A stretch of DNA of 64,000 bases, from positions 32,001-96,000 of IMG/VR virus record IMGVR_UViG_3300028591_000085. One strand, written 5' to 3'. Source of the stretch: a virus. Taxonomy: Duplodnaviria > Caudoviricetes. The notes beneath the pieces were generated by a model. That model made no database searches and was not told the DNA's origin. It worked only from the letters and a program-made list of their open reading frames with translations. Below, in pieces: positions 1 to 11,903 of the stretch (position 1 is the stretch's first letter; each line of letters begins with the position of its first letter). Made by a program: the position numbers and the translations under genes.

Positions 1-3000
1 AGGCTTCCGAATTTTTTATCCTTATCATTATAAGTATATTTATAATTATATCCACCATTATTATCTCTGGTTAATGTTCCTTTATATTTAACCTCATCAG
101 ACTTGTATCCATCACCGAAACCACCATATTGTCCATTATCAAATGACCAGGCTTTACCGGTTCTATTTACAATATCATTAAGTTTGTATTTCTTGTTATA
201 AGATTTTCCACGAGGATCACTTATATCAACGTTACCATTTGAATCAATACCAGTAGCAACTACATAATGTCCAGCGTCAGTATAAGGATCATCTCCCCTA
301 CCACCATAACGTCCATTACCAGATGCTCCTGAAAGAATCATAGGTTTACCACTCTTTAATTCAGATGAAATGAATTGAGAGCTAGGCATGAATTCTTCAG
401 TAGTATTAATACCATATGCATTTGAAGCATTATCTATAAAATTCCAATTTGTTCCAGTATCATCTCTGTCTCCAGTCATTTCAGCAAGTGCTGCTGTTTC
501 AGTAGGTAATACAGATTGACCGGTCATCTTGGATGCTATCATAGACATTGCGGTAGGACCACATCCGGTATCATCCATGGTCGCTCCATCATTACCATAC
601 TTATTTGAACTCCACGCAGAGTCAGACTGTGAGTAATACGGAACACCATTTACATCGTCAGGTCCTCTACCACCCTTAGGAAGTTTCTTTCGAGATTTAG
701 ACCCCTTACCATTACCTCCCCATAATGATGTGATGTTTTCAATGTAACCAGTAGTAGTATCCTTAACTTCATTCCAAATACCAGTAGCATGCTCTTTGAT
801 TCCTGAAATAAAGTTATTAATACCTTCAGCTATTCCATCGACAATTTTCGAAACAGTCGGGAATTTTTCGTGTATAGTTTCATATACAGACGACATAAAG
901 TCGCTTGCCTTATCAAAGAATTTGCTAGTTGCTTCTGTAGTTTTATTCCATAATTCTTTTGCTCTATCTTTAAAATTCTGAAGAGAATTTTTAGCAGTAT
1001 TTTTCAACGGAATCTTTTCTTTAGTTAATAAACCTAATTTTATCTTTTCATTAACTTCATCAGCATTTACTGTTTCGTCAATCAGGTCACCATTAGCATT
1101 ATAATGCTTATAAGTTTTACCATCAGCAACATAATAGCTACCATCAGACGGATCAAACCATCCATACTGATTTGTCAATTTAAGTATCCCTAAACCAGCT
1201 CCTGCTATAGGATTTATTAAACTAAACGCAGCAGTTACGCCCTCTCTAACTTTATAGAGAACTGAATCTCTATTGTTGAACATATCGGTCCATGCATTAG
1301 ATAATTTTTCTTTGAGCTTTGCGCCAGTTTCTTTAATCTTGGTGAAATCAAAATGAGAAGTAACATCCTTAATGAATATACCAGACTTAATAGACTGCTC
1401 AACTTCTTCGTCTGTTCTGGGATTTTCAAGAACTTCATCAGTTGCTGAATAGTAAACATATTTACCATTTTCGTTCTTATAATATGTACCATCACCAACT
1501 AAATACTTCTCATCAGTTGACATTATCTTTGATACAAGCCCGTTACCCTTACTAATAGCATCTGCTAATTTAGAACTTTTCCTGATATTATCTAATAATT
1601 TTTCACCTAAAGATGTTGCAATTTTAGCAGAATTTTCTTGATTTTCATCACGCTTTTTAAATAAACTTGACCAGGCCTCAGCAGCATCATTTAATATAGT
1701 ATGTGCTATAGCAGTAGTTTTACCCATTATTTTTATATTTGTCGCTTTTATTATTCCCTGTTGGATAAGACTTGTAAGTTCTTCATCTGTTATAGGTGGA
1801 ACTTCTTGATCATATCCATCTGCATCACATAATGACCATTTACCGTTACTAGATTCATGGTAATAATAGCCAGCATACTCGCCACTCAAAACTTGATATG
1901 CGGTAACCTTTCTTGATCCAATTAGTTTTCTACCATAATCTCCGCCAGTAAAGAAATCACCGACGCTTTTAATTTTATCACCAACTATTGATACTGCTTC
2001 ATCGGTAACACCTCTGATATGTCCACCTATTTTAGCAGCTTTTTCACCGACCTTATCGCCAATGGTCTTATTCTGTTCCAAGTTCCAATCATCAAATGAT
2101 TTATGTTTAATTACTTCATTATTTTCTTCAGCCCATTGTTTATATTCATCGACTGACATATTCTTATCAACTTTACCAGATTTTTTAGCTTCTTCTAGGG
2201 ATTTTTCAGTTTGCTCAAGAACATAACTGTTATATTCATCCATAAAATTAGTTTGAGCATCCTTTAATCTAGCTTCATCAGAATCACCGGCAAATAAATT
2301 ATATAATGCATTTGCAATGTTATGCCAGCCATTCCAACCACTTAATGTATTAATAATATCAAAGATAACATCAACTATTGCACCGATTGTAGTTCCTGAA
2401 AAACCTCCAAGAATTGCAGCAATTATTTCCATTCCAGTATCAACATCATCTTGACTTACTTGGAATAATTTAGCAGCACCAGCTTTTCCACCACGTGCTA
2501 TCATGCCTAATATGCCACCACCAACTTCAAATACAATGGTACCAACTCCAAGAGTTGCAGCACCTGTTGCAGTTTTAGCTTCAGCTTCAGCAGTTACCTT
2601 TTCGACCTGTCCGACTTCTTTCGGACCAAATTTTTCAACAGCCTCCTTAATAATTTTTTCAGCTTCATCAACCGACTTAGTGGTTCCTTTAGCACCTTTA
2701 TGTTTAACAAGATCCACTATCTTTTTAAAGAAATTTTTAATTGTTTCTTTAATTCTAGTAATCATATTTTTAAGAACACCACCGGCACCCTTTTCAGTCG
2801 ATGCTAATGATGCACTATTAATTTCAATATTTTTAGCATGTTTTAATACAGCTTTTTCATACTTAGCAGCTTGTTTACTTAATTTTTTAGATTTCTTAGT
2901 TAATTTGGCAGCTTCTTTTTCTAAGTCAGTTAATGTTTCAAGTCCTACCTTTTCTGCACCACGTCCAAAACTATGAGAGAATCCTGCCATCGCTGCTTTT

Positions 3001-6000
3001 TTTGACGCTTCCTTAGCTTCAGTTTCTGCAAGTTTTGCTGCTGCCTCAGCAGCAATTTTCTTTTCTAGTGCTTTAGCGCCCTTAGCAGTAGCATGTTCCA
3101 TACCTTTTGTACCAAGATAGTTTAATCCACCACTAACAGCTCTAAAACCAGATGCACTCTTAGGATTAAAAATATCAGCTGCAGAATGTATATTTGCACC
3201 TTTTGATAAAACTTTACCCACACCCTGAGCAGTACCACCAACTATTTTAGTTCCGACGGTTGGAATTACTGATGCTCCTTTTCCAACAACTTTCAGTGTA
3301 CCACCCATAACTGCAGCGGTACCTCTAATTGCACCAGGATGCATTAATAAATTAGCTTTAGCTTGAGAGTGAGAATCCCATTCACCGTCTTTATTAGTCA
3401 CAAATGTCATAGGAGCTGCTAATGGGTCATAATTTTCTCCAGGAAGTAGTTGTTTAGCTGCAGCAACACTATTTTGGGCTTCGTCTTTAATATTATCTAT
3501 ATTACTCTGCCCATTAGTATTTCTATCATTTTTATTGCCTAAGAAATTAATTACGTCGGCCACTTTATTTACTAGATCAGCTGCAACATCAGCAATTTTT
3601 ATAACAGCACTTGAAAATGCTTCCCAATTAATTTTTTTAACAAGTTCAGCTGTACCATCTGCAATTTTTGTTCCGATGAACCATATATTCTTTGCTAAAC
3701 TTGAAATACCATCTATATACGGTTTAAGACTACTATTTTCATATTTTTCTTTAATCCATCCAGTGAATCCCTTTTCTTTAATATCGTTAATAGCTTGAGT
3801 AGCACCCTGTGCCATTTCAGAAAAATACGATTCCCCAGTTTTCTGGTTAACAAAAATATTTTTAATCTTTTCACCTAAAGTTTCACCTATACCATCACCC
3901 TTTAAGAATGACCAGATATTTCCTAAGATTCCACCTAAAGGTGAAGAGGCTAACCATTTAAATGCTTTTATAAGAAAAGGAGAAGCAAGTATTAAAGCAG
4001 TTGCAAGTTTTCCTTTTCTACCAAAAACACTCTTCCATTCAGCAAAATGGTCACTTGCTCTCGATTTGATAACAGCAGTATTTTCCTTTATTGCTGTAAA
4101 TAACTTCTCTGTTCTATCTCTGGTTTGTTCAGCTATTCTATGAGCAAGTCGTTGACCTCCCTGATGCACATTACTAAGTGTGGACATGATCGGATTAGGG
4201 TCAATCGCTGCTGCTCCAGATTCAAAGCCTTTACCACCTCTAACAACACGTACAATAGGACCATGGCCGCCAAAATTTATTTTTCGTCTAGTACCATTTC
4301 CACCATTTGCTGTCGCAGAGGCATTATTTTCATTTATTAAACGTTCAAGCCTATCAAGTTTTTCAGAATCTCCTGTAAGCTCAAAATGTATAGTCTTAAT
4401 TCCGTGTTTAAGATCAACCTGTAATGTGTCAGAATCTTGCCGACTACATCCACTACATCTCTTTGCTAAATCTTCTAAAGAACCGATATCGTCAATTTCA
4501 ACAGTACTATTTTCTAATTCATCTAAATTTTCCAACGGATTATTAGTTTTACCATTATTGGACATCATCTTTTTCCTACCCTTATTTCTAAGAGAGGCTT
4601 CCGATTTTTTAGCTTTATTACGTAACTGCATTATTAAATTATTATCATCATAATTATCATAAGAGCTGACATCTTCCATATTCTCACTGAAATCAGCGTC
4701 TTCATCTTGATATCCTTTACTATATTTACTATAGCTATCTTTTAATCCAGCGGTTGAATCCATATTTCCTTCTTGCAATTTATTACCGTCCAAATCTATG
4801 AGTTCACCTTTAGTATTACGTAAAATACCGGTTTTTAAAACTCTATTAGCTACAGTAACTACAGTTTCGCCAGGATCAAGATATATAATTTTTTTAGATA
4901 ATAATTTAGTAAGTTTATCCTGTACTTGTTCTGCAATATTATCTGCTCTATAATCGTATATATATTTAGCATGACCTGATGTAAAGTTCAATATTCCTTC
5001 ATTAAATTTATGACGTAAAAATCCTTTTACACCACCATGCATTGATACTTCGTCACCAAAGAACCGTGATGATGCAGCCTTTGCTATAACTCCACCTTTA
5101 GTTTTAGCTTGTGCAAGTCTTAACTTAGTAGCACTAAACGCATAATCTAAACCACTATGATCGCCGGGAGTATTATCAATAGTATCTTTTACTTCACGTT
5201 CAACAGCATCATAATCAATATTACCAGTAGCATCTTTATGCTTATTGATAATTTCAGTGAGTTCGGTATATCCTTTTTCACGTTCAGCTTGACTTGTATT
5301 ACTAAATCTACGTTCAAGTTCTTTATCATTTTTATCAGAGAATCTGTCTGAATCATCATCATTGCCAGAAATCTTATCATATATTTTCTTTAATACATAA
5401 GCTATCTGAGCATTCTCACTAAGTTTTGAGAACGGTAATTTTACTATATCTTTAAATCCTTTACCGATTAATGAAATACCTTCAGTTTGCTCACGCGCTC
5501 TTCTAGTAAGTGCATCTTCGGTTTCAACCGTAGTATCAAGATATTTACTTGCCTTACCGCCACTCATTACTTTAGCCATATAACGAGCTTCAGCTGTATC
5601 AGACGAATATTGACCTTTAGTATATTTCTGAATTATTTTTGCGTTCTTATCACGAATTTTTTGTTCTTTATATTCTTTATTAATTTTAGCACGAGCTTCT
5701 TTTTGTTGTTTTCTACGCTCACGCCATCTTTCAGCTCTGGTCATACCATCAAGCTGTTCCTGAGTTCTACTTGTTGGTGCTGTAATACCAAATGCTTTAC
5801 CAAACTTAGTATTACTTAACCATTTCATACCTTTTTTAGCACCGTATACACCTAACTGTAATGCAGTACCAATACCTTTAAACGCAAGTTTAATAGGTGA
5901 AAATGCTAATTTAGTAAGACCAACAATTTGTCTACCTATTGATTTAATCTCAGTTTTAATAGTTCGCTTAAGCCAATCTTTTCCTGTATCTAAAGCTGCT

Positions 6001-9000
6001 TTAAGTTTACTATTACGCCATGCATCTGAAAGCTTATTATATACAGTAAATTGTATTGCTTTAATTAATTTAAACGGTGCAAGAAGTATATGTTGATTTA
6101 CTTCATAAGCTAGTTTAGCAGCTCCAGAAATGACTTTCTTAACGGGAGTTACTATAGTTTTATTAAGTATTTCAGCAAACGGTACTAAAATACTATTTTT
6201 AATAAATCCTGAAATATCATTTGCAACTTCATCAAATTTTGATTTAACTGCACCAACTACACCTCCAACTTTTTCAGAGATCGCCTCTGCCATAAATGAA
6301 AGTGAGTCACCAACAGTATATTCCAAATTAAGTGCAATTTGTTTACCCCAATATACAAACTGGGTCTTCAGAGGTCTTAAGAAGTTTGCATTAAGCATAT
6401 TTCCAATACGACCGAATAATCCATGCTTATGCTTCTTTTCACCAGTATATTCGTCTATATAATCTTCACCAAATAAGAATTTCTTAAATGCTGAACCATT
6501 TGCAGCAATAGAAGCACCGAGACCCATTAATGCACCAAACACAGGTCCACCAGGTAAAACAGCACTAGCTAAAGCACCACCTAAAATACCTAAACCTGAC
6601 ATTGAAAGAATCTTGGTGTCTTGGCTTAAATTAACACCTATAGAACCAGCAAACTTATCAGCGCCTTTTCTAAATGCATCTCTTATTCCAGGAAGTAATC
6701 CTTTTTGAGCAGTGTCAGGATTTCCGAATAAGAAGTTTTTCATTTTCTCAGATCTAGCCACTAACGTTGTAGCTATACCGAGACCAGCACCTACAATAGG
6801 ACCGCCCACAAGAGTGCCAAGAAGACCTCCACCTTTTCCAAAAAGGGAATGTGTCAGCATTCCGATTGCTCCACCACCAATGATGTCAAGCTTATGTTTC
6901 TTTAAATAATCTTGAGCGCCCTTGCTAATGAAACCACCAATACGGTCACCATTTTCATCTTTTTCGCCGAATAACCAATTTTGGAAAGATTCATTCTTAG
7001 CTAAAATACTACCAGCTATACCAAGACCTACACCTGTAATAGGACCACCAATGATAGAACCTAAAAGGCTCGAACCTGCAAATATACCAAAACCGGCACC
7101 TATAGCACCGCCAATAGTAGCATCCTTGGTATAACTATTCACTTTAGCTTGTACTTTTTTCTTTATATCTTCTTCACTCTGACCTTCAAGAGGTTCACCT
7201 ATAATTTTTTCTTTCCATGCATTAAGACCCTGACTAAAGAAATCTTTAAACTTGGAGAATAATCCACCTTTACGTTTACCAGTAGGATTTCCATTTTCAT
7301 CAAGTTCTTCAGGTCCAAATAATTTAGTCAAAATTCCTCGTTTAATTGTACCAAATACAGAATCTTTATTATCAGCATACTCAGTACCATCACTAGAAGT
7401 ATAACCTGTACCAACTAAAGTGTACCTTATATGTTTAAAAGTATCACCTAAGTAATTACGTACTTGAGACAATAAACCATTTTGGTAATTACCGTTTTCA
7501 TCTTTAACACCTAATATAGCTTCCTTAAGAGGATTAAATACATTATTTTTAAGACTAGTACCAATATCACTAGCACCAGACTTAAAAATTCTTTGAAACT
7601 CTTGTCCAACTAATCTAATATCAAGCGGACCAGACATAAGTCGATTCATGCTTCCTTTTAAGGTATCTACTGTATTAGTGAAAAAGCTACCAACTTTACC
7701 ACCATGAGTAGCTAACCATCCAGCTTTACTTGGGTCGCTTTGCTGAAGAGCATAGCTATAATCTCTGAGATTTGCAATACTCTTATTTTTAAGACTTTTT
7801 TTAATTTCAGTATTATATAATGATGAATTAGCGCGAAGCCATTCATCGTAATTCTCAATATGAGTATCTCCAGTTGCAAAATATCCAGACCTTATCGGAT
7901 CATTTTCTATTTCTGATAAGAACTTAGTTTGATCAGCTTGAGTACTTCTTAACTGAGCAGTTAATTGTCCAGCTATATCTTTATTTTGCTCTGAAATTTT
8001 TAATAGCTCTTTAACAACTAAATCAATATTCTTATCATTTTTTCCACCAGAAAAACTCTTGGCTTGTTTAATAGCTTCAACAAAAGCTTCATTACCCATA
8101 TCCAGACTTAAATGAGATCTTTGCTCAGCCATTGATTTGAGTAATTGCTTTGCTGTAATGATAAGAGCATCTCGTTCTTCTTTAGCTTTATCTTCTGTTT
8201 GAGATTTAGTAGCTTGGGTAAAAGCATTTTCGAGTTCTTTGAACATTCTTCCATTATACAGTGGCTCCATTATTTTATTAAGTGCAGCATCTGCATTAGA
8301 ACGTCTCTTATCTTTTACCTGTATATAACCCATAGTATTAAAATCAAACATTTCAGAATCGTCTTTAGCTGTTTTAGTTTTTTCAGATTCGAAATGTCCG
8401 CTAATTATTTTCAGATACTGGGTTTGTTCTCTAAGCTCCTTAGTGATAATTTCGGTAATAGCAAATTTAGTTTCTTTATCAAAACGAATCGGACTATTCT
8501 CAAATTCATCAATTGATAACGTATTTTTCCTATTAACTCTAACACCGAATGTTTGAGCAAGGAATTTTTTAAAGTGTCCACCAATATCATGTTCACCGAC
8601 TACTACATTTTCTCCATACTCTGCTAATCTATCCAATATGACTGGTACAAAATTTGAAAATGCCGTCTCAAGACTTTGCATAGTAGAACCAAATACCTTA
8701 CTCATTAAGGTAGAACTAACCATACTTGAAACCATGCCCAGAGGATTCTCAATAAACATCTCAATCAAACTATCATCAAGATTAACTATTTCACCAATAA
8801 AAGGAACTTCGCTTAATGCACGTTTTGCATTCTTCTTGATTACATTCTTATATCGTGATAATTCTATACCACCTTTAGTACGATCCCTTAATGCCGCTAA
8901 CGGGTCATCTTCATTTTTTAATATGGATGCACCATTATCTTCTCGTTTACCAACGGCTTCATAATACCCTATACTTTTTTGAATGAATTCCTTCATGGAT

Positions 9001-9560
9001 TCATTATTGAATTTTACAATAGATTCAAGAGAATTTGTTACATTCTTTAAGTGAGCGTCTATCATGCCATTCATTTTTTCAAGTTGCTGCATACTTACAG
9101 CATTCATTGAAATTTGGGCATCCATATTAGCTTTAGCAATTTTTACAGTTGCTTCACCTTGACGCTGTATATTTCTATTTAAATCGAGAACAGCATCTCT
9201 AGTACCGTTATCGACATTTATATTATAACTACCTTCACCTTCACCCACATCATCTGATCCAAATGTAATATCTGATGATTCATCATCATCAGCAAACATA
9301 CCCCCAAAACCAAAATCAGAGTCATGACCGGCTATGTTACCAGCTTTTATATCTTTCCATGAATTTTTGAGAGCTTGATATGAAGCCTGAACATATTTGT
9401 TCTGCTTCAATGATGTAGCAATCCTATTTGTAGTTGCTTTTGTCTGTCTTATAGATGTAATTATTGATTTTGTAGCATTAATGCCAGCTGACGTAACATC
9501 AGATATATTAGGATATAATTCACTAAAAGCTGATGACGTGCTAGCTCCTATACTCTTCAT
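1..9560 (-). CDS. Giant tape-measure-like tail protein (>3,180 aa, runs off left edge) with a C39-like papain-fold peptidase domain near the window edge
   Basis: Frame spot-checked as open at 9000, 6000, 3000, 1260-1410 and 3-130. Ala/Gly/Lys-rich helical and hydrophobic GxxxG segments; VPYYSQSD..W..GCGPTAM..GHYVVATG..DP at about 220-650. The RBS-bearing ATG at 9628 is out of frame (see findings); first in-frame ATG is 9560. Confidence 0.8.
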   Translation of the reverse strand, partial: MKSIGASTSSAFSELYPNISDVTSAGINATKSIITSIRQTKATTNRIATSLKQNKYVQASYQALKNSWKDIKAGNIAGHDSDFGFGGMFADDDESSDITFGSDDVGEGEGSYNINVDNGTRDAVLDLNRNIQRQGEATVKIAKANMDAQISMNAVSMQQLEKMNGMIDAHLKNVTNSLESIVKFNNESMKEFIQKSIGYYEAVGKREDNGASILKNEDDPLAALRDRTKGGIELSRYKNVIKKNAKRALSEVPFIGEIVNLDDSLIEMFIENPLGMVSSMVSSTLMSKVFGSTMQSLETAFSNFVPVILDRLAEYGENVVVGEHDIGGHFKKFLAQTFGVRVNRKNTLSIDEFENSPIRFDKETKFAITEIITKELREQTQYLKIISGHFESEKTKTAKDDSEMFDFNTMGYIQVKDKRRSNADAALNKIMEPLYNGRMFKELENAFTQATKSQTEDKAKEERDALIITAKQLLKSMAEQRSHLSLDMGNEAFVEAIKQAKSFSGGKNDKNIDLVVKELLKISEQNKDIAGQLTAQLRSTQADQTKFLSEIENDPIRSGYFATGDTHIENYDEWLRANSSLYNTEIKKSLKNKSIANLRDYSYALQQSDPSKAGWLATHGGKVGSFFTNTVDTLKGSMNRLMSGPLDIRLVGQEFQRIFKSGASDIGTSLKNNVFNPLKEAILGVKDENGNYQNGLLSQVRNYLGDTFKHIRYTLVGTGYTSSDGTEYADNKDSVFGTIKRGILTKLFGPEELDENGNPTGKRKGGLFSKFKDFFSQGLNAWKEKIIGEPLEGQSEEDIKKKVQAKVNSYTKDATIGGAIGAGFGIFAGSSLLGSIIGGPITGVGLGIAGSILAKNESFQNWLFGEKDENGDRIGGFISKGAQDYLKKHKLDIIGGGAIGMLTHSLFGKGGGLLGTLVGGPIVGAGLGIATTLVARSEKMKNFLFGNPDTAQKGLLPGIRDAFRKGADKFAGSIGVNLSQDTKILSMSGLGILGGALASAVLPGGPVFGALMGLGASIAANGSAFKKFLFGEDYIDEYTGEKKHKHGLFGRIGNMLNANFLRPLKTQFVYWGKQIALNLEYTVGDSLSFMAEAISEKVGGVVGAVKSKFDEVANDISGFIKNSILVPFAEILNKTIVTPVKKVISGAAKLAYEVNQHILLAPFKLIKAIQFTVYNKLSDAWRNSKLKAALDTGKDWLKRTIKTEIKSIGRQIVGLTKLAFSPIKLAFKGIGTALQLGVYGAKKGMKWLSNTKFGKAFGITAPTSRTQEQLDGMTRAERWRERRKQQKEARAKINKEYKEQKIRDKNAKIIQKYTKGQYSSDTAEARYMAKVMSGGKASKYLDTTVETEDALTRRAREQTEGISLIGKGFKDIVKLPFSKLSENAQIAYVLKKIYDKISGNDDDSDRFSDKNDKELERRFSNTSQAEREKGYTELTEIINKHKDATGNIDYDAVEREVKDTIDNTPGDHSGLDYAFSATKLRLAQAKTKGGVIAKAASSRFFGDEVSMHGGVKGFLRHKFNEGILNFTSGHAKYIYDYRADNIAEQVQDKLTKLLSKKIIYLDPGETVVTVANRVLKTGILRNTKGELIDLDGNKLQEGNMDSTAGLKDSYSKYSKGYQDEDADFSENMEDVSSYDNYDDNNLIMQLRNKAKKSEASLRNKGRKKMMSNNGKTNNPLENLDELENSTVEIDDIGSLEDLAKRCSGCSRQDSDTLQVDLKHGIKTIHFELTGDSEKLDRLERLINENNASATANGGNGTRRKINFGGHGPIVRVVRGGKGFESGAAAIDPNPIMSTLSNVHQGGQRLAHRIAEQTRDRTEKLFTAIKENTAVIKSRASDHFAEWKSVFGRKGKLATALILASPFLIKAFKWLASSPLGGILGNIWSFLKGDGIGETLGEKIKNIFVNQKTGESYFSEMAQGATQAINDIKEKGFTGWIKEKYENSSLKPYIDGISSLAKNIWFIGTKIADGTAELVKKINWEAFSSAVIKIADVAADLVNKVADVINFLGNKNDRNTNGQSNIDNIKDEAQNSVAAAKQLLPGENYDPLAAPMTFVTNKDGEWDSHSQAKANLLMHPGAIRGTAAVMGGTLKVVGKGASVIPTVGTKIVGGTAQGVGKVLSKGANIHSAADIFNPKSASGFRAVSGGLNYLGTKGMEHATAKGAKALEKKIAAEAAAKLAETEAKEASKKAAMAGFSHSFGRGAEKVGLETLTDLEKEAAKLTKKSKKLSKQAAKYEKAVLKHAKNIEINSASLASTEKGAGGVLKNMITRIKETIKNFFKKIVDLVKHKGAKGTTKSVDEAEKIIKEAVEKFGPKEVGQVEKVTAEAEAKTATGAATLGVGTIVFEVGGGILGMIARGGKAGAAKLFQVSQDDVDTGMEIIAAILGGFSGTTIGAIVDVIFDIINTLSGWNGWHNIANALYNLFAGDSDEARLKDAQTNFMDEYNSYVLEQTEKSLEEAKKSGKVDKNMSVDEYKQWAEENNEVIKHKSFDDWNLEQNKTIGDKVGEKAAKIGGHIRGVTDEAVSIVGDKIKSVGDFFTGGDYGRKLIGSRKVTAYQVLSGEYAGYYYHESSNGKWSLCDADGYDQEVPPITDEELTSLIQQGIIKATNIKIMGKTTAIAHTILNDAAEAWSSLFKKRDENQENSAKIATSLGEKLLDNIRKSSKLADAISKGNGLVSKIMSTDEKYLVGDGTYYKNENGKYVYYSATDEVLENPRTDEEVEQSIKSGIFIKDVTSHFDFTKIKETGAKLKEKLSNAWTDMFNNRDSVLYKVREGVTAAFSLINPIAGAGLGILKLTNQYGWFDPSDGSYYVADGKTYKHYNANGDLIDETVNADEVNEKIKLGLLTKEKIPLKNTAKNSLQNFKDRAKELWNKTTEATSKFFDKASDFMSSVYETIHEKFPTVSKIVDGIAEGINNFISGIKEHATGIWNEVKDTTTGYIENITSLWGGNGKGSKSRKKLPKGGRGPDDVNGVPYYSQSDSAWSSNKYGNDGATMDDTGCGPTAMSMIASKMTGQSVLPTETAALAEMTGDRDDTGTNWNFIDNASNAYGINTTEEFMPSSQFISSELKSGKPMILSGASGNGRYGGRGDDPYTDAGHYVVATGIDSNGNVDISDPRGKSYNKKYKLNDIVNRTGKAWSFDNGQYGGFGDGYKSDEVKYKGTLTRDNNGGYNYKYTYNDKDKKFGS

Positions 9561-10459: not shown

Positions 10460-10556
10460 CTTCATCAACCCTTTCATTACAATATTGTGTAGTGTATAAT
10501 AAAATAATATAATAAAGTATATAACTTCTACACAATATAATATTATATAATAAAAA

Positions 10557-10588
10557 CCGTAAAGTCGGTTTTTTCGATGATATACTAT
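10557..10588 (+). promoter_or_regulatory. Early-type promoter (CCGTAAAGTC-N10-ATGATATACTAT)
   Basis: Same arrangement recurs on the minus strand near 51846-51877 and 53789-53820. Confidence 0.65.
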
Positions 10589-10606
10589 TTATGTGCCATA
10601 ATGATA

Positions 10607-10687
10607 TTGTCAATAATATCATTACCAACTTACGCATTCCGATTGATGGAAAGTAAGACGTAAGGTTTCGTGTAATGATTGAGACAA
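10607..10687 (+). ncRNA. Conserved structured 5' leader motif, copy A
   Basis: Core CAACTTACG CATTCC GATTGAT GGAA AGTAAGA CGTAAGG TTTCG inside outer stem atcattac/gtaatgat; five copies in window. Confidence 0.75.
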
Positions 10688-10712
10688 AATAAATTTTAAA
10701 GGAGGAATCATT

Positions 10713-11066
10713 ATGACAAAAATCGTAAACCTCACTCCCCACATGGTAACCATCATGGGCGAGGGCAACAAGTTTGCCCTCAATATCGAGCCATCTGGCA
10801 AGTTGGCTCGTGTATCCGCTACGACCGTAGTCGTAGGTGAGATAGAGGTGAGGACCGACATACGGACGACGTTTAAGGTACCCATAACGACAACCCGTTA
10901 CGGGGAGGTTGAGGGACTCCCCGATCCCGCGCCTGATACTATCTACGTAGTATCCTCCCTTGTCGCGGGACGTGTCCCCGACAGGGAGGATGTTTTCATC
11001 CCGAACGAGTCCGTTCGGGATGACGAGGGGAGGATCATCGGATGCCGTTCCCTCGGCCACATCTGA
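10713..11066 (+). CDS. NLTPH-family small protein; possible Crn4-like cyclic-oligoadenylate ring nuclease
   Basis: GGAGG RBS; motifs NLTPH, PSG..ARV, GLP, YVVS..VA, R.D..P, VRD..G.IIGC; GC much higher than flanks. Crn4 link is from memory and unverified. Confidence 0.55.
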   Translation: MTKIVNLTPHMVTIMGEGNKFALNIEPSGKLARVSATTVVVGEIEVRTDIRTTFKVPITTTRYGEVEGLPDPAPDTIYVVSSLVAGRVPDREDVFIPNESVRDDEGRIIGCRSLGHI

Positions 11067-11074
11067 TGACCTAA

Positions 11075-11410
11075 ACCACATGAAAGGAGGTGATTAACAT
11101 GTGGAATTAATTAGCACCCATCCCCAAAGGGTGAACGTGGTTTCTATACTGACACGTAAAAAAGTATAGCGTTGATAGTTTCGTAAAACTATAGATATCC
11201 GTCATACTTTGTATGGTCCAGAGCTCGCTAGTGGGAGTAACTGGTGAAAAGGAAGAAAGAAGTAATACTATGCGAGTTAGTATTATGAGCGCTCACTAGA
11301 AATGCCGAACATCTTGGGGTGGAAGATACGTATAAGAATCAGAAATGTACGGCGCATTTCTGTTACATAACTAAAAATAAGTTGAAGTTCTCGCATCAAC
11401 TTATTTTTTT
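11075..11410 (+). ncRNA. Unannotated highly structured RNA (about 335 nt, multiple hairpins and pseudoknots)
   Basis: No long ORF; at least 8 hairpins and 3-4 loop-to-distal complementarities; ends in a terminator. Confidence 0.65.
11373..11410 (+). terminator. Intrinsic terminator
   Basis: aaaaataagttga/tcaacttattttt plus T-run. Confidence 0.75.
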
Positions 11411-11463
11411 ATAATTTTTTATATAATCAAATTTACTCATTCGTATTTTGTTTTTTTGTATAT

Positions 11464-11472
11464 ATATATTAT
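11464..11472 (+). promoter_or_regulatory. Early-type promoter motif
   Basis: ATATATTAT just upstream of leader copy B. Confidence 0.55.
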
Positions 11473-11494
11473 TTATTTAGTCATATTGATAATA

Positions 11495-11570
11495 TACCAA
11501 TAGAACTATACCAACTTATGCATTCCTAATAGAGGATATTAGTCATAAGGTGTCGAGTATAGTTATGGTA
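11495..11570 (+). ncRNA. Conserved structured 5' leader motif, copy B
   Basis: CAACTTATG CATTCC TAATAGA GGAT ATTAGT CATAAGG TGTCG; outer stem aactatac/gtatagtt. Confidence 0.75.
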
Positions 11571-11594
11571 AATAAAAAATAAGGAGGTATCATT

Positions 11595-11903
11595 ATGACT
11601 GATAAGAACATATTCGAAATAGCCTCAAACGATGCTGAGGCTAACCAACTCATGGAGAAGGTTTTTTATGCATCAAAAACCTTCAACGACACTCTGTTCT
11701 CGATCAAATATTTGATCGAGAACAGATACAATAATAAAGCTCCTGGATCAATGATTGAGCTGCTCTATCAGCTCAAAGGTATGGCAGAAAAGTTAATAGT
11801 ATCTGCCGAAATCATTTCCGACTTCGGTCATATGCTGGCCGAAGTCAAGGCTTTGAGCGAAAATGATTCAGTCGAAGCTGAGGAAGCTAAGACTGAGGGC
11901 TAA
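11595..11903 (+). CDS. Hypothetical helical protein (cassette cargo)
   Basis: AAGGAGGT RBS, 102 aa, own promoter, leader and terminator. Confidence 0.8.
   Translation: MTDKNIFEIASNDAEANQLMEKVFYASKTFNDTLFSIKYLIENRYNNKAPGSMIELLYQLKGMAEKLIVSAEIISDFGHMLAEVKALSENDSVEAEEAKTEG

What the first reader, a model, noticed from the sequence alone, without database searches (positions are those of the whole stretch)
11075..11410. Unannotated ~335-nt ornate RNA with several pseudoknots downstream of the NLTPH gene
Seen hairpins: ccacatg/catgtgg (11076-11104), caccc/gggtg (11115-11133), acgtg/cacgt (11135-11157), atagttt/aaactat (11175-11192), catac/gtatg (11203-11215), ccag/ctgg (11218-11244), taatacta/tagtatta (11263-11285), atctt/aagat (11311-11327), cagaaatg/catttctg (11340-11362), then a terminator. 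Seen long-range pairings: loop ctatact (11144-11150) with agtatag (11163-11169), a classic H-type pseudoknot with an A-rich linker; ctagtggg (11228-11235) with ctcactag (11292-11299); loop ccccaa (11122-11127) with ttgggg (11314-11319); gctcgc (11223-11228) with loop gcgagt (11272-11277). It is GC-richer than other intergenic DNA and has no long ORF. Inference: a compact tertiary-structured ncRNA co-transcribed with a probable anti-defence gene, acting as decoy/antitoxin mimic, ribozyme or RNP scaffold.
Basis: partly seen in the sequence, partly recalled or inferred. Interest (0 to 1): 0.85.

Follow-up and report, generated by a model that had tools for sequence, protein, structure and literature searches.

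The report
Structured RNA tail behind phage Crn4
A hairpin-rich, roughly 340-base untranslated tail follows a phage anti-CRISPR ring-nuclease gene and stays almost unchanged while the gene itself varies enormously, so it is probably a functional RNA of unknown role.

Summary
Perfect local hairpins are enriched: 5 against 0.17 in shuffles, top 1% of genome windows. Overall folding energy (z about -2.6) is ordinary for this genome, and the pseudoknots are not shown by covariation.

The stretch 11067-11410 (+) is the 3'UTR of a self-contained cassette in a rumen jumbo phage: promoter, dispersed 5' leader, 117-aa gene, 3'UTR, terminator. The gene is a Crn4b-type ring nuclease (PDB 9r7b, E 7e-16), so "anti-defence gene" holds.

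The cassette holds the longest ORF-free gap of the 203-kb genome. Contigs from three metatranscriptome libraries carry gene and tail together.

I found 9 variants in 22 loci, all 95.7-99.5% identical, behind five very different crn4 alleles. In one relative, flanking synonymous sites differ by 10-45% but the tail by 2.3%.

Variation gives one compensatory pair, four pair-preserving one-sided changes (three to G.U, one U.G to C-G), two disruptive changes, and indels only in loops.

There is no Rfam family and no homologue outside this phage group.

Best guess: a cis-acting stability and insulation module, possibly yielding a stable 3'UTR-derived RNA. Decoy, ribozyme or scaffold roles are untested.

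Earlier scan notes exist on this same stretch only, not on other DNA.

The parts
10580..10623 (+). Promoter region of the cassette (inferred), paralogous to the region before the 102-aa gene
   Evidence: Alignment of the two upstream regions. Position inferred; the sigma-70 scan gave nothing above chance.
10624..10712 (+). Conserved 5' leader, a dispersed element with a second copy at 11510-11594; runs through the RBS to ATGAC
   Evidence: Motif ACCAACTTAYGCATTCC occurs twice, 0 expected. 92-100% identical in relatives. Many other contigs share block 10626-10671.
10713..11066 (+). crn4b-type ring-nuclease gene (117 aa), hypervariable between otherwise near-identical phages
   Evidence: PDB Crn4b 9r7b, E 7e-16 single sequence and 5e-21 with a profile; H10 and R102 invariant. 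Alleles are 56-84% nt identical over the CDS, 45-95% by CDS thirds.
11064..11069 (+). Double stop TGATGA
   Evidence: Sequence; invariant in the first five variants aligned (A5).
11076..11104 (+). Hairpin 1. The loop shows GAAAGGAGGTGAT (11082-11094), a 13-14-nt match to a Firmicute-type 16S 3' end. ATG 11099 in the 3' arm opens a 2-3-codon ORF (MWN* here, MW* in 6 of 9 variants).
11105..11114 (+). (T)AATTAATTAG block; in the six variants that carry the extra T it gives stop codons in all three frames
   Evidence: Sequence. Kept despite a 1-nt indel at 11104.
11115..11133 (+). Hairpin 2 (CACCC/GGGTG, loop AUCCCCAAA)
   Evidence: The only compensatory change seen: C11119>T with G11129>A in the L066 class, C-G to U-A.
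11135..11169 (+). Candidate H-type pseudoknot: stem 11135-39/11153-57 and stem 11144-50/11163-69, with an A-rich third loop
   Evidence: In L063 a 3-nt deletion (11142-44) and a 1-nt insertion (A-run) fall in the loops and keep stem 2 with a U.G. The same deletion removes 3 pairs of the rival MFE helix 11140-46/11297-303.
11175..11192 (+). Hairpin 4 (7 bp, 4-nt loop), invariant
11202..11216 (+). Hairpin 5, extended by the pair 11202/11216
   Evidence: T11202>C turns U.G into C-G in 3 variants. T11205>C breaks the middle pair in L063.
11218..11244 (+). Hairpin 6 (4 bp) with a 19-nt loop that carries the 5' strands of two proposed long-range pairings
   Evidence: invariant.
11246..11262 (+). 17-nt all-purine single-stranded tract
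   Evidence: Sequence. Unpaired in both models. One A>G in L066.
11263..11285 (+). Hairpin 7 (8 bp, loop UGCGAGU)
   Evidence: C11268>T gives U.G in two variant classes.
11292..11299 (+). 3' strand of the proposed pairing with 11228-11235
   Evidence: C11296>T in L002 gives G.U, so the pairing is kept.
11311..11327 (+). Hairpin 8 (5 bp, loop GGGGUGG), invariant
11328..11339 (+). Variable linker, the only mutation-tolerant stretch of the tail
   Evidence: 6 of 12 columns vary among 9 variants.
11340..11362 (+). Hairpin 9 (8 bp). The terminal pair is lost in 3 variants.
11373..11410 (+). Terminator-like hairpin (15 pairs) with a U-run; the conserved block ends here
   Evidence: Fold. 97-100% identical in all variants, and identity drops to 52% just after it in L063. 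Not listed by the consensus scan.

Best explanation
11067-11410 (+) is the long, hairpin-rich 3' untranslated region of a moron-like early cassette in a rumen jumbo phage. The cassette consists of a phage promoter, a dispersed 5' leader, a crn4b ring-nuclease gene, this tail and an intrinsic terminator.

The tail is made as RNA together with crn4 and is under constraint as RNA.

Most likely it works in cis as a stability and insulation module (inferred). The double stop and the (T)AATTAATTAG stop block keep ribosomes off the folded part. The very strong Shine-Dalgarno plus 2-3-codon ORF, displayed on hairpin 1, parks a 30S subunit or ribosome at its 5' edge, which in Firmicutes blocks 5'-to-3' decay by RNase J1. 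The stack of hairpins plus the terminator blocks 3'-to-5' decay. The outcome would be a long-lived crn4 message and/or a stable 3'UTR-derived RNA of about 300 nt.

Shown: anatomy, hairpin enrichment, presence in RNA libraries, conservation pattern, identity of the gene. Inferred: ribosome parking, stabilisation, any processed species.
For: - Cassette anatomy and paralogous leader.
- Crn4b identity (PMC12830947).
- Longest ORF-free gap of the genome.
- 5 perfect hairpins of at least 7 bp against 0.17 in shuffles, top 1% of genome windows.
- Metatranscriptome contigs from three studies span gene plus tail: X2 10688-11321 at 100% identity, X19 10627-11356 at word depth 57 against 3-7 for neighbouring pieces, X23 11032-11331.
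- 9 variants in 22 loci are 95.7-99.5% identical, behind alleles whose third codon positions in the last third of the CDS are only 55-81% identical.
- Identity jumps at the stop codon and ends at the terminator.
- In L103 the tail differs by 2.3%, against 9.8-44.6% at flanking third codon positions and 15.9% in other non-coding DNA (p 5e-4 to 1e-39). In L002 it is 2.0% against 5.3% (p 0.02).
- One compensatory pair in hairpin 2.
- Four pair-preserving one-sided changes: three turn a Watson-Crick pair into G.U (11078, 11268, 11296), which only holds on the + strand, and 11202 turns U.G into C-G.
- All indels lie in loops or linkers.
- The SD loop pairs about 14 nt with a Bacillus-type 16S 3' end.
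Against: - Folding energy is not unusual for this genome.
- Covariation is statistically insignificant, and the nested MFE model fits the substitutions almost as well.
- Against the closest relatives (L066, L068) the tail diverges like backbone synonymous sites: 1.5-2.9% against about 3%. Its constancy there needs no selection.
- The contrast in L103 could be a recent recombination patch.
- All copies come from one phage group, and no distant homologue exists.
- Logan contigs cannot show RNA ends, strand or level, and DNA carry-over in RNA libraries is possible.
- Stabilisation and ribosome parking are untested.
Confidence: 0.45

Rival explanations
1. Trans-acting non-coding RNA. The tail, whole or processed, acts on something else as a second anti-defence or regulatory part: a base-pairing sRNA, or a decoy or sponge for a host protein or for Crn4 itself.
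For: Near-invariance of the primary sequence, not only of pairs, including loops and the purine tract. Always linked to crn4 alleles. The ribosome-parking element at its 5' edge would suit a separately stable species.
Against: No discrete RNA species has been shown. No complementarity above chance to the rest of the phage genome. Other Crn4 genes, 1394 homologues, lack it. No known family.
Confidence: 0.2
2. No RNA-level function. The block is a constant linker of the phage backbone that serves, or merely survives, as a homology arm for swapping crn4 alleles and neighbouring cassettes. Its constancy comes from frequent recombination.
For: Backbones of L066 and L068 are 98.4-99.2% identical to the window, and the tail diverges like their synonymous sites. 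The slot between the 186-aa and 1450-aa genes is a cargo hot spot: GNAT genes in L047 and L049, empty in L061. The 5' leader is likewise constant.
Against: Hairpin density is in the top 1% of the genome. Substitutions are pair-preserving on the + strand and indels lie only in loops. A 340-nt spacer is never trimmed in a genome that is 93% ORF. The tail is less diverged than every flank in L103.
Confidence: 0.2
3. Ligand-sensing or catalytic RNA: a riboswitch-like aptamer, for example for cyclic oligoadenylate, or a new self-cleaving ribozyme.
For: Only context: it sits next to a cOA-degrading enzyme, has a compact candidate pseudoknot with an A-rich loop, and its sequence is highly conserved.
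Against: No match to any Rfam riboswitch or ribozyme at E up to 10. It lies downstream of the gene, so it cannot gate that gene's transcription. A terminator and a separate promoter and leader stand between it and the next gene.
Confidence: 0.05
4. Decayed remnant of a second gene that once followed crn4, with the strong RBS and ATG at 11099 as its start.
For: A perfect RBS and ATG with no real ORF. GC content lies between that of the gene and of spacers.
Against: Stops of all three kinds interrupt all frames. A pseudogene should decay, yet this is the least diverged segment. The -strand small ORFs are frameshifted in L063.
Confidence: 0.05
5. RNA anti-CRISPR (Racr): hairpin 2 mimics a host CRISPR repeat.
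For: The 12-mer ATCCCCAAAGGG also occurs in CRISPR repeats, for example a Tissierellia array.
Against: There is no similarity beyond the 12-mer, and that search was built to find tandem arrays. No Rfam CRISPR-DR hit. The L066 double change keeps hairpin 2 but weakens a CCCC/GGGG repeat-like stem.
Confidence: 0.03

Closest known systems
STAB-SD and ribosome-protected stabilisers of Firmicute mRNAs (B. thuringiensis cryIIIA leader; B. subtilis hbs, PMC5737220)
   Same: A very strong Shine-Dalgarno with no real ORF behind it. Bound 30S subunits or ribosomes are known to block RNase J1 and so protect the RNA downstream.
   Different: Those elements sit in 5' leaders. This one opens a 3'UTR just after a stop codon and is followed by about 270 nt of hairpins. 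No decay data exist here.
Long regulatory 3'UTRs of Gram-positive mRNAs (S. aureus icaR, PMC3868564)
   Same: A 3'UTR of more than 300 nt with a C-rich hairpin loop, belonging to a single-gene transcript.
   Different: icaR works by 3'UTR-5'UTR pairing at the SD. Here leader-tail pairing is no better than shuffles.
Flavivirus xrRNA/sfRNA (works-like analogy only)
   Same: A virus 3'UTR with compact pseudoknotted hairpins that could leave a stable 3' fragment with an immune-evasion role.
   Different: No sequence or family relation, a different nuclease, and no evidence of a resistant fragment.
RNA anti-CRISPRs (Racrs, PMC10651486)
   Same: A phage non-coding RNA in an anti-CRISPR context.
   Different: Racrs are solitary CRISPR-repeat mimics. 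No repeat likeness was found here.
Phage morons and accessory cassettes (promoter-gene-terminator units between core genes)
   Same: Own promoter and terminator, inserted in a variable slot, carrying anti-defence cargo.
   Different: Morons normally lack a long conserved structured tail.

Membership tests
Any Rfam 15 RNA family | Covariance-model score at or above the gathering threshold | tested here: not met
   0 hits in the window at gathering scores. In 10500-11650 the best E-mode hits score 10-20 bits against thresholds of 36-200.
H-type pseudoknot (11135-11169) | Two stems in which the loop of the first pairs downstream, with loop lengths able to span the grooves | tested here: met
   5-bp and 7-bp stems with loops of 4, 2 and 5 nt. 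The L063 variant has loops of 1-2, 2 and 6 nt and still pairs.
H-type pseudoknot (11135-11169) | Covariation or probing support for both stems | tested here: inconclusive
   All 12 pairs are invariant apart from the C-G to U.G implied by the L063 deletion. The MFE alternative is not excluded.
STAB-SD-type stabiliser | Extended complementarity to the 16S rRNA 3' end without a real ORF | tested here: inconclusive
The ORF is 2-3 codons.
STAB-SD-type stabiliser | Raises the half-life of downstream RNA in an RNase J1-dependent way | not testable with these tools
   Needs decay assays.
Racr (RNA anti-CRISPR) | Sequence and structure mimic of a host CRISPR repeat | tested here: not met
   No CRISPR-DR hit. 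Only a 12-mer is shared with unrelated arrays. The host's own repeats are unknown.
Crn4 ring nuclease (the upstream gene) | Sequence homology to Crn4a/Crn4b across the whole length | tested here: met
   9r7b E 7e-16 over residues 1-116; profile E 5e-21.
Crn4 ring nuclease (the upstream gene) | Catalytic His (NLTPH) and Arg (the xVRD motif; NESVRD here), shown essential in Crn4a (H15, R112) | tested here: met
   H10 and R102 are invariant in 22 homologues and aligned to Crn4b.
Crn4 ring nuclease (the upstream gene) | Homodimer fold and cOA cleavage | not tested
   No structure prediction or assay was done.
Diversity-generating retroelement target (as cause of crn4 variability) | A template repeat matching the variable region, with changes at A positions | tested here: not met
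   The genome has a DGR, but crn4 has no second copy in the genome and its alleles differ at all bases, with indels.

The most novel reading that the evidence does not exclude
The invariant tail is an RNA partner of the viral ring nuclease, a second RNA-based layer of defence evasion. It could be released as a stable 3'UTR-derived RNA. It might bind cyclic oligoadenylates or a type III / CBASS effector or Cas protein. Or it might shield the early crn4 transcript from type III targeting, while the coding part escapes spacers by wholesale allele replacement.
Probability: 0.12. Interest if true: 0.85.

Novelty: new variant of a known kind. Interest (0 to 1): 0.55.

Why it matters
Viral Crn4 ring nucleases were proposed as anti-CRISPRs only in late 2025, and how they are expressed is not described.

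This locus shows a wild phage population that keeps the same 5' leader and the same roughly 340-nt structured tail around at least five crn4 alleles. Those alleles differ as much as distant family members do.

If the tail controls message life or acts as an RNA in its own right, it would be the first RNA element tied to a ring-nuclease counter-defence gene, and a compact portable expression module for Firmicute phages.

If it is only a recombination linker, the locus is still a clean natural example of allele swapping inside a fixed non-coding frame.

Tried and rejected
- Rfam at gathering and E-value thresholds: nothing.
- tRNA/tmRNA scan: none.
- blastn against the phage collection: no match.
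- IMG/VR pattern scans with two 19-20-mers and one split pattern: none.
- GTDB genomes: a 20-mer gave none, and the split pattern gave two hits that are probably chance.
- JGI metagenome 20-mer: only L062 (the same contig as L002) and L063.
- blastn and nhmmer of the tail against 39 other Crn4 loci and 15 loci of more distant kin: only chance-level hits. Those loci have no long gap after the gene.
- Stop-codon recoding: rejected, since all three stops occur in all frames.
- Small ORFs on the - strand: frameshifted in L063.
- DGR as the source of crn4 variability: rejected.
- 5' leader-3' tail pairing: not above shuffles, P 0.33.
- Racr mimicry: not supported.
- RNA ends: the RNA-library contigs stop at 11321-11356 and start at 10606-10688. 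These places coincide with the variable linker and the repeated leader, where assembly graphs branch, so I draw no conclusion on transcript ends. The lack of RNA-contig cover over 11357-11410 is not evidence of anything.
- A 6357-nt DNA contig in run X4 carries a diverged copy of 11224-11311 only (12 mismatches, 4 gaps). I could not fetch it.
- The careful tree did not finish. The quick tree leaves a single origin of the RNA-linked alleles open.
- One script was killed and rerun.

Full report
WHAT IS THERE

The window is bases 32001-96000 of a 203-kb IMG/VR virus record, about 32% GC and 85% complete. An identical copy of the 117-aa protein lies on a 273-kb contig. The sequence is found in sheep, cattle and goat gut metagenomes from 15 studies.

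The finding lies between a 117-aa gene (10713-11066, +) and a 102-aa gene (11595-11903, +). Two of the long-range pairings contain a G.U, and two pairs of claims overlap by 1-2 nt.

IS IT MORE THAN CHANCE?

- Energy: no. MFE z is -3.3 with the terminator and -2.3 to -2.8 without it. Random 291-nt windows of this genome average z -1.24 (sd 1.75), and 7 of 44 are as low as the target.
- Hairpin density: yes. There are 5 perfect hairpins of at least 7 bp, against 0.17 in 2000 dinucleotide shuffles, and only 1% of 697 genome windows have as many.
- Other features: the region is GC-richer than other spacers. All three stop types interrupt every frame. 11082-11594 is the longest ORF-free gap of a genome that is 93% ORF.

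CONTEXT

The 117-aa protein is a Crn4b-type ring nuclease. It matches PDB 9r7b at E 7e-16 alone and 5e-21 with a profile. The catalytic His (NLTPH) and Arg (NESVRD) are invariant. Chi et al. 2025 (PMC12830947) showed that Crn4 degrades cyclic oligoadenylates, and proposed the phage copies as anti-CRISPRs. An earlier scan note gave me this lead, and I verified it here.

The gene has its own promoter and 5' leader. These are paralogous to the ones in front of the 102-aa gene, and the leader is dispersed in the genome. A terminator-like hairpin at 11373-11410 closes the unit.

In more distant kin (1450-aa protein 59-71% identical), the slot between the 1450-aa and 186-aa genes holds other cargo or nothing. 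So this is a moron-like cassette, and 11067-11410 is exactly its 3'UTR.

TRANSCRIPTION

Contigs assembled from three metatranscriptome studies carry the gene and tail together:
- X2: 10688-11321, 100% identical.
- X19: 10627-11356, word depth 57 against 3-7 for neighbouring pieces.
- X23: 11032-11331.

Contigs cannot give ends, strand or level, and their break points coincide with the repeated leader and a variable linker. I claim only co-occurrence on RNA-library contigs.

RELATIVES AND CONSERVATION

No homologue exists in Rfam, the phage collection, IMG/VR or GTDB genomes. The tail is not found behind 39 other Crn4 genes.

Through close Crn4 alleles and one metagenome pattern hit, I collected 22 loci with 9 distinct variants. 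They are 95.7-99.5% identical to the window.

The crn4 alleles in front of them fall into at least five classes. Whole-CDS nucleotide identity to the window is 56-84%, and 45-95% when taken by CDS thirds. Third codon positions in the last third of the CDS are only 55-81% identical. Identity jumps to about 98% right after the stop codon. In L063 it falls to 52% right after the terminator.

One caution applies. The backbones of L066 and L068 are 98-99% identical to the window, and there the tail diverges like synonymous sites: 1.5-2.9% against about 3%.

In L103, however, flanking third codon positions differ by 44.6%, 34.8% and 9.8%, and other non-coding DNA by 15.9%, while the tail differs by 2.3% (p 5e-4 or lower). 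In L002 the figures are 2.0% against 5.3% (p 0.02).

So the tail is the least diverged segment of the locus. The cause is either purifying selection or repeated patch-wise recombination.

STRUCTURE FROM VARIATION

Variation is scarce:
- One compensatory change, in hairpin 2: C11119>T with G11129>A.
- Four pair-preserving one-sided changes. Three turn a Watson-Crick pair into G.U, which would be mismatches on the - strand: 11078, 11268 and 11296, the last in the 11228-35/11292-99 pairing. The fourth, 11202, turns U.G into C-G.
- Two disruptive changes: 11205, and the terminal pair at 11340.
- All indels lie in loops or linkers.
- There is one clearly free linker, 11328-11339.

The 3-nt deletion in L063 fits the H-type knot 11135-11169 and removes three pairs of the rival MFE helix.

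Formally the covariation is not significant: 76 of 500 shuffles reach it. The nested MFE model is almost equally compatible.

FEATURES THAT POINT TO A MECHANISM

- A TGATGA double stop.
- Nine nt later, hairpin 1, whose loop is a 13-14-nt match to a Firmicute-type 16S 3' end, with an AUG in the 3' arm.
- A 2-3-codon ORF, kept despite a 1-nt indel.
- A TAATTAATTAG block that, in the six variants carrying the extra T, gives stops in all three frames.

This arrangement suits parking a ribosome at the 5' edge while keeping the folded part untranslated. It resembles the known STAB-SD and hbs-type protection against RNase J1 (PMC5737220, listed; otherwise my own knowledge).

Leader-tail pairing of the icaR/hbs kind is not supported.

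VERDICT

This is a real, transcribed, hairpin-rich and unusually constant 3'UTR of a phage Crn4 anti-defence cassette. 'Ornate, several pseudoknots' is unproven.

- Most likely (0.45): a cis-acting stability and insulation module, possibly giving a stable 3'UTR-derived RNA.
- Rivals: a trans-acting RNA (0.2), a recombination linker without RNA function (0.2), a sensor or ribozyme (0.05), a gene remnant (0.05), a Racr (0.03).

It is a new RNA element without a family, confined so far to one rumen phage group.

Noticed in passing
window 10720-11063; L002, L003, L004, L063, L066, L068, L103: The crn4 coding sequence is hypervariable between phages whose backbone is 98-99% identical. There are at least five allele classes (58-85% aa identity, indels in the beta-hairpin region), with boundaries at the start and stop codons.
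   Followed up: partly
window 10624-10712 and 11510-11594; further genome copies near G000:C1 66519, 83685-83877, 85686-85820, 141414-141494, 152387-152571, 174442-174512: A dispersed promoter plus 5' leader unit stands in front of unrelated accessory genes. Block 10626-10671 is shared by many other contigs in rumen runs (word depth 193 in X4).
   Followed up: partly
G000:C1:167766-170092 (L065), outside the window: A diversity-generating retroelement: a 355-aa reverse transcriptase (RVT_1, E 1e-20), and a 103-nt repeat pair at 169006-169108 / 169262-169364 (85% identical), the second at the 3' end of a 286-303-aa target gene.
   Followed up: partly
L047 9325-9948; L049 9732-10854; L061 9830-10330: In more distant kin, the slot between the 1450-aa and 186-aa genes holds what look like acetyltransferase (GNAT-like) genes by their sequence motifs (no family search was run), or only about 500 nt of AT-rich spacer with a terminator. 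It is an accessory-gene hot spot.
   Followed up: partly
window 11224-11311 against a 6357-nt contig of run X4: A diverged partial copy of the tail (88 nt, 12 mismatches, 4 gaps) lies in another DNA context. It could not be fetched.
   Followed up: no
window 11693-11726 and 11657-11684: A perfect 34-bp palindrome (17+17, no spacer) and a 28-bp near-palindrome lie inside the 102-aa gene.
   Followed up: no
window 3-9560 (-); L066-L070: A giant gene, more than 3186 aa in the window and 4776-4790 aa in relatives. The called product in L067 carries lysozyme, CHAP and lipase family hits.
   Followed up: no
L068 3718-4231; L073 1490-2779; L066 3890-4183: The cassette after the tail differs between near-identical phages: a 102-aa gene, a 97-aa gene, a 430-aa gene, or no called gene.
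   Followed up: no
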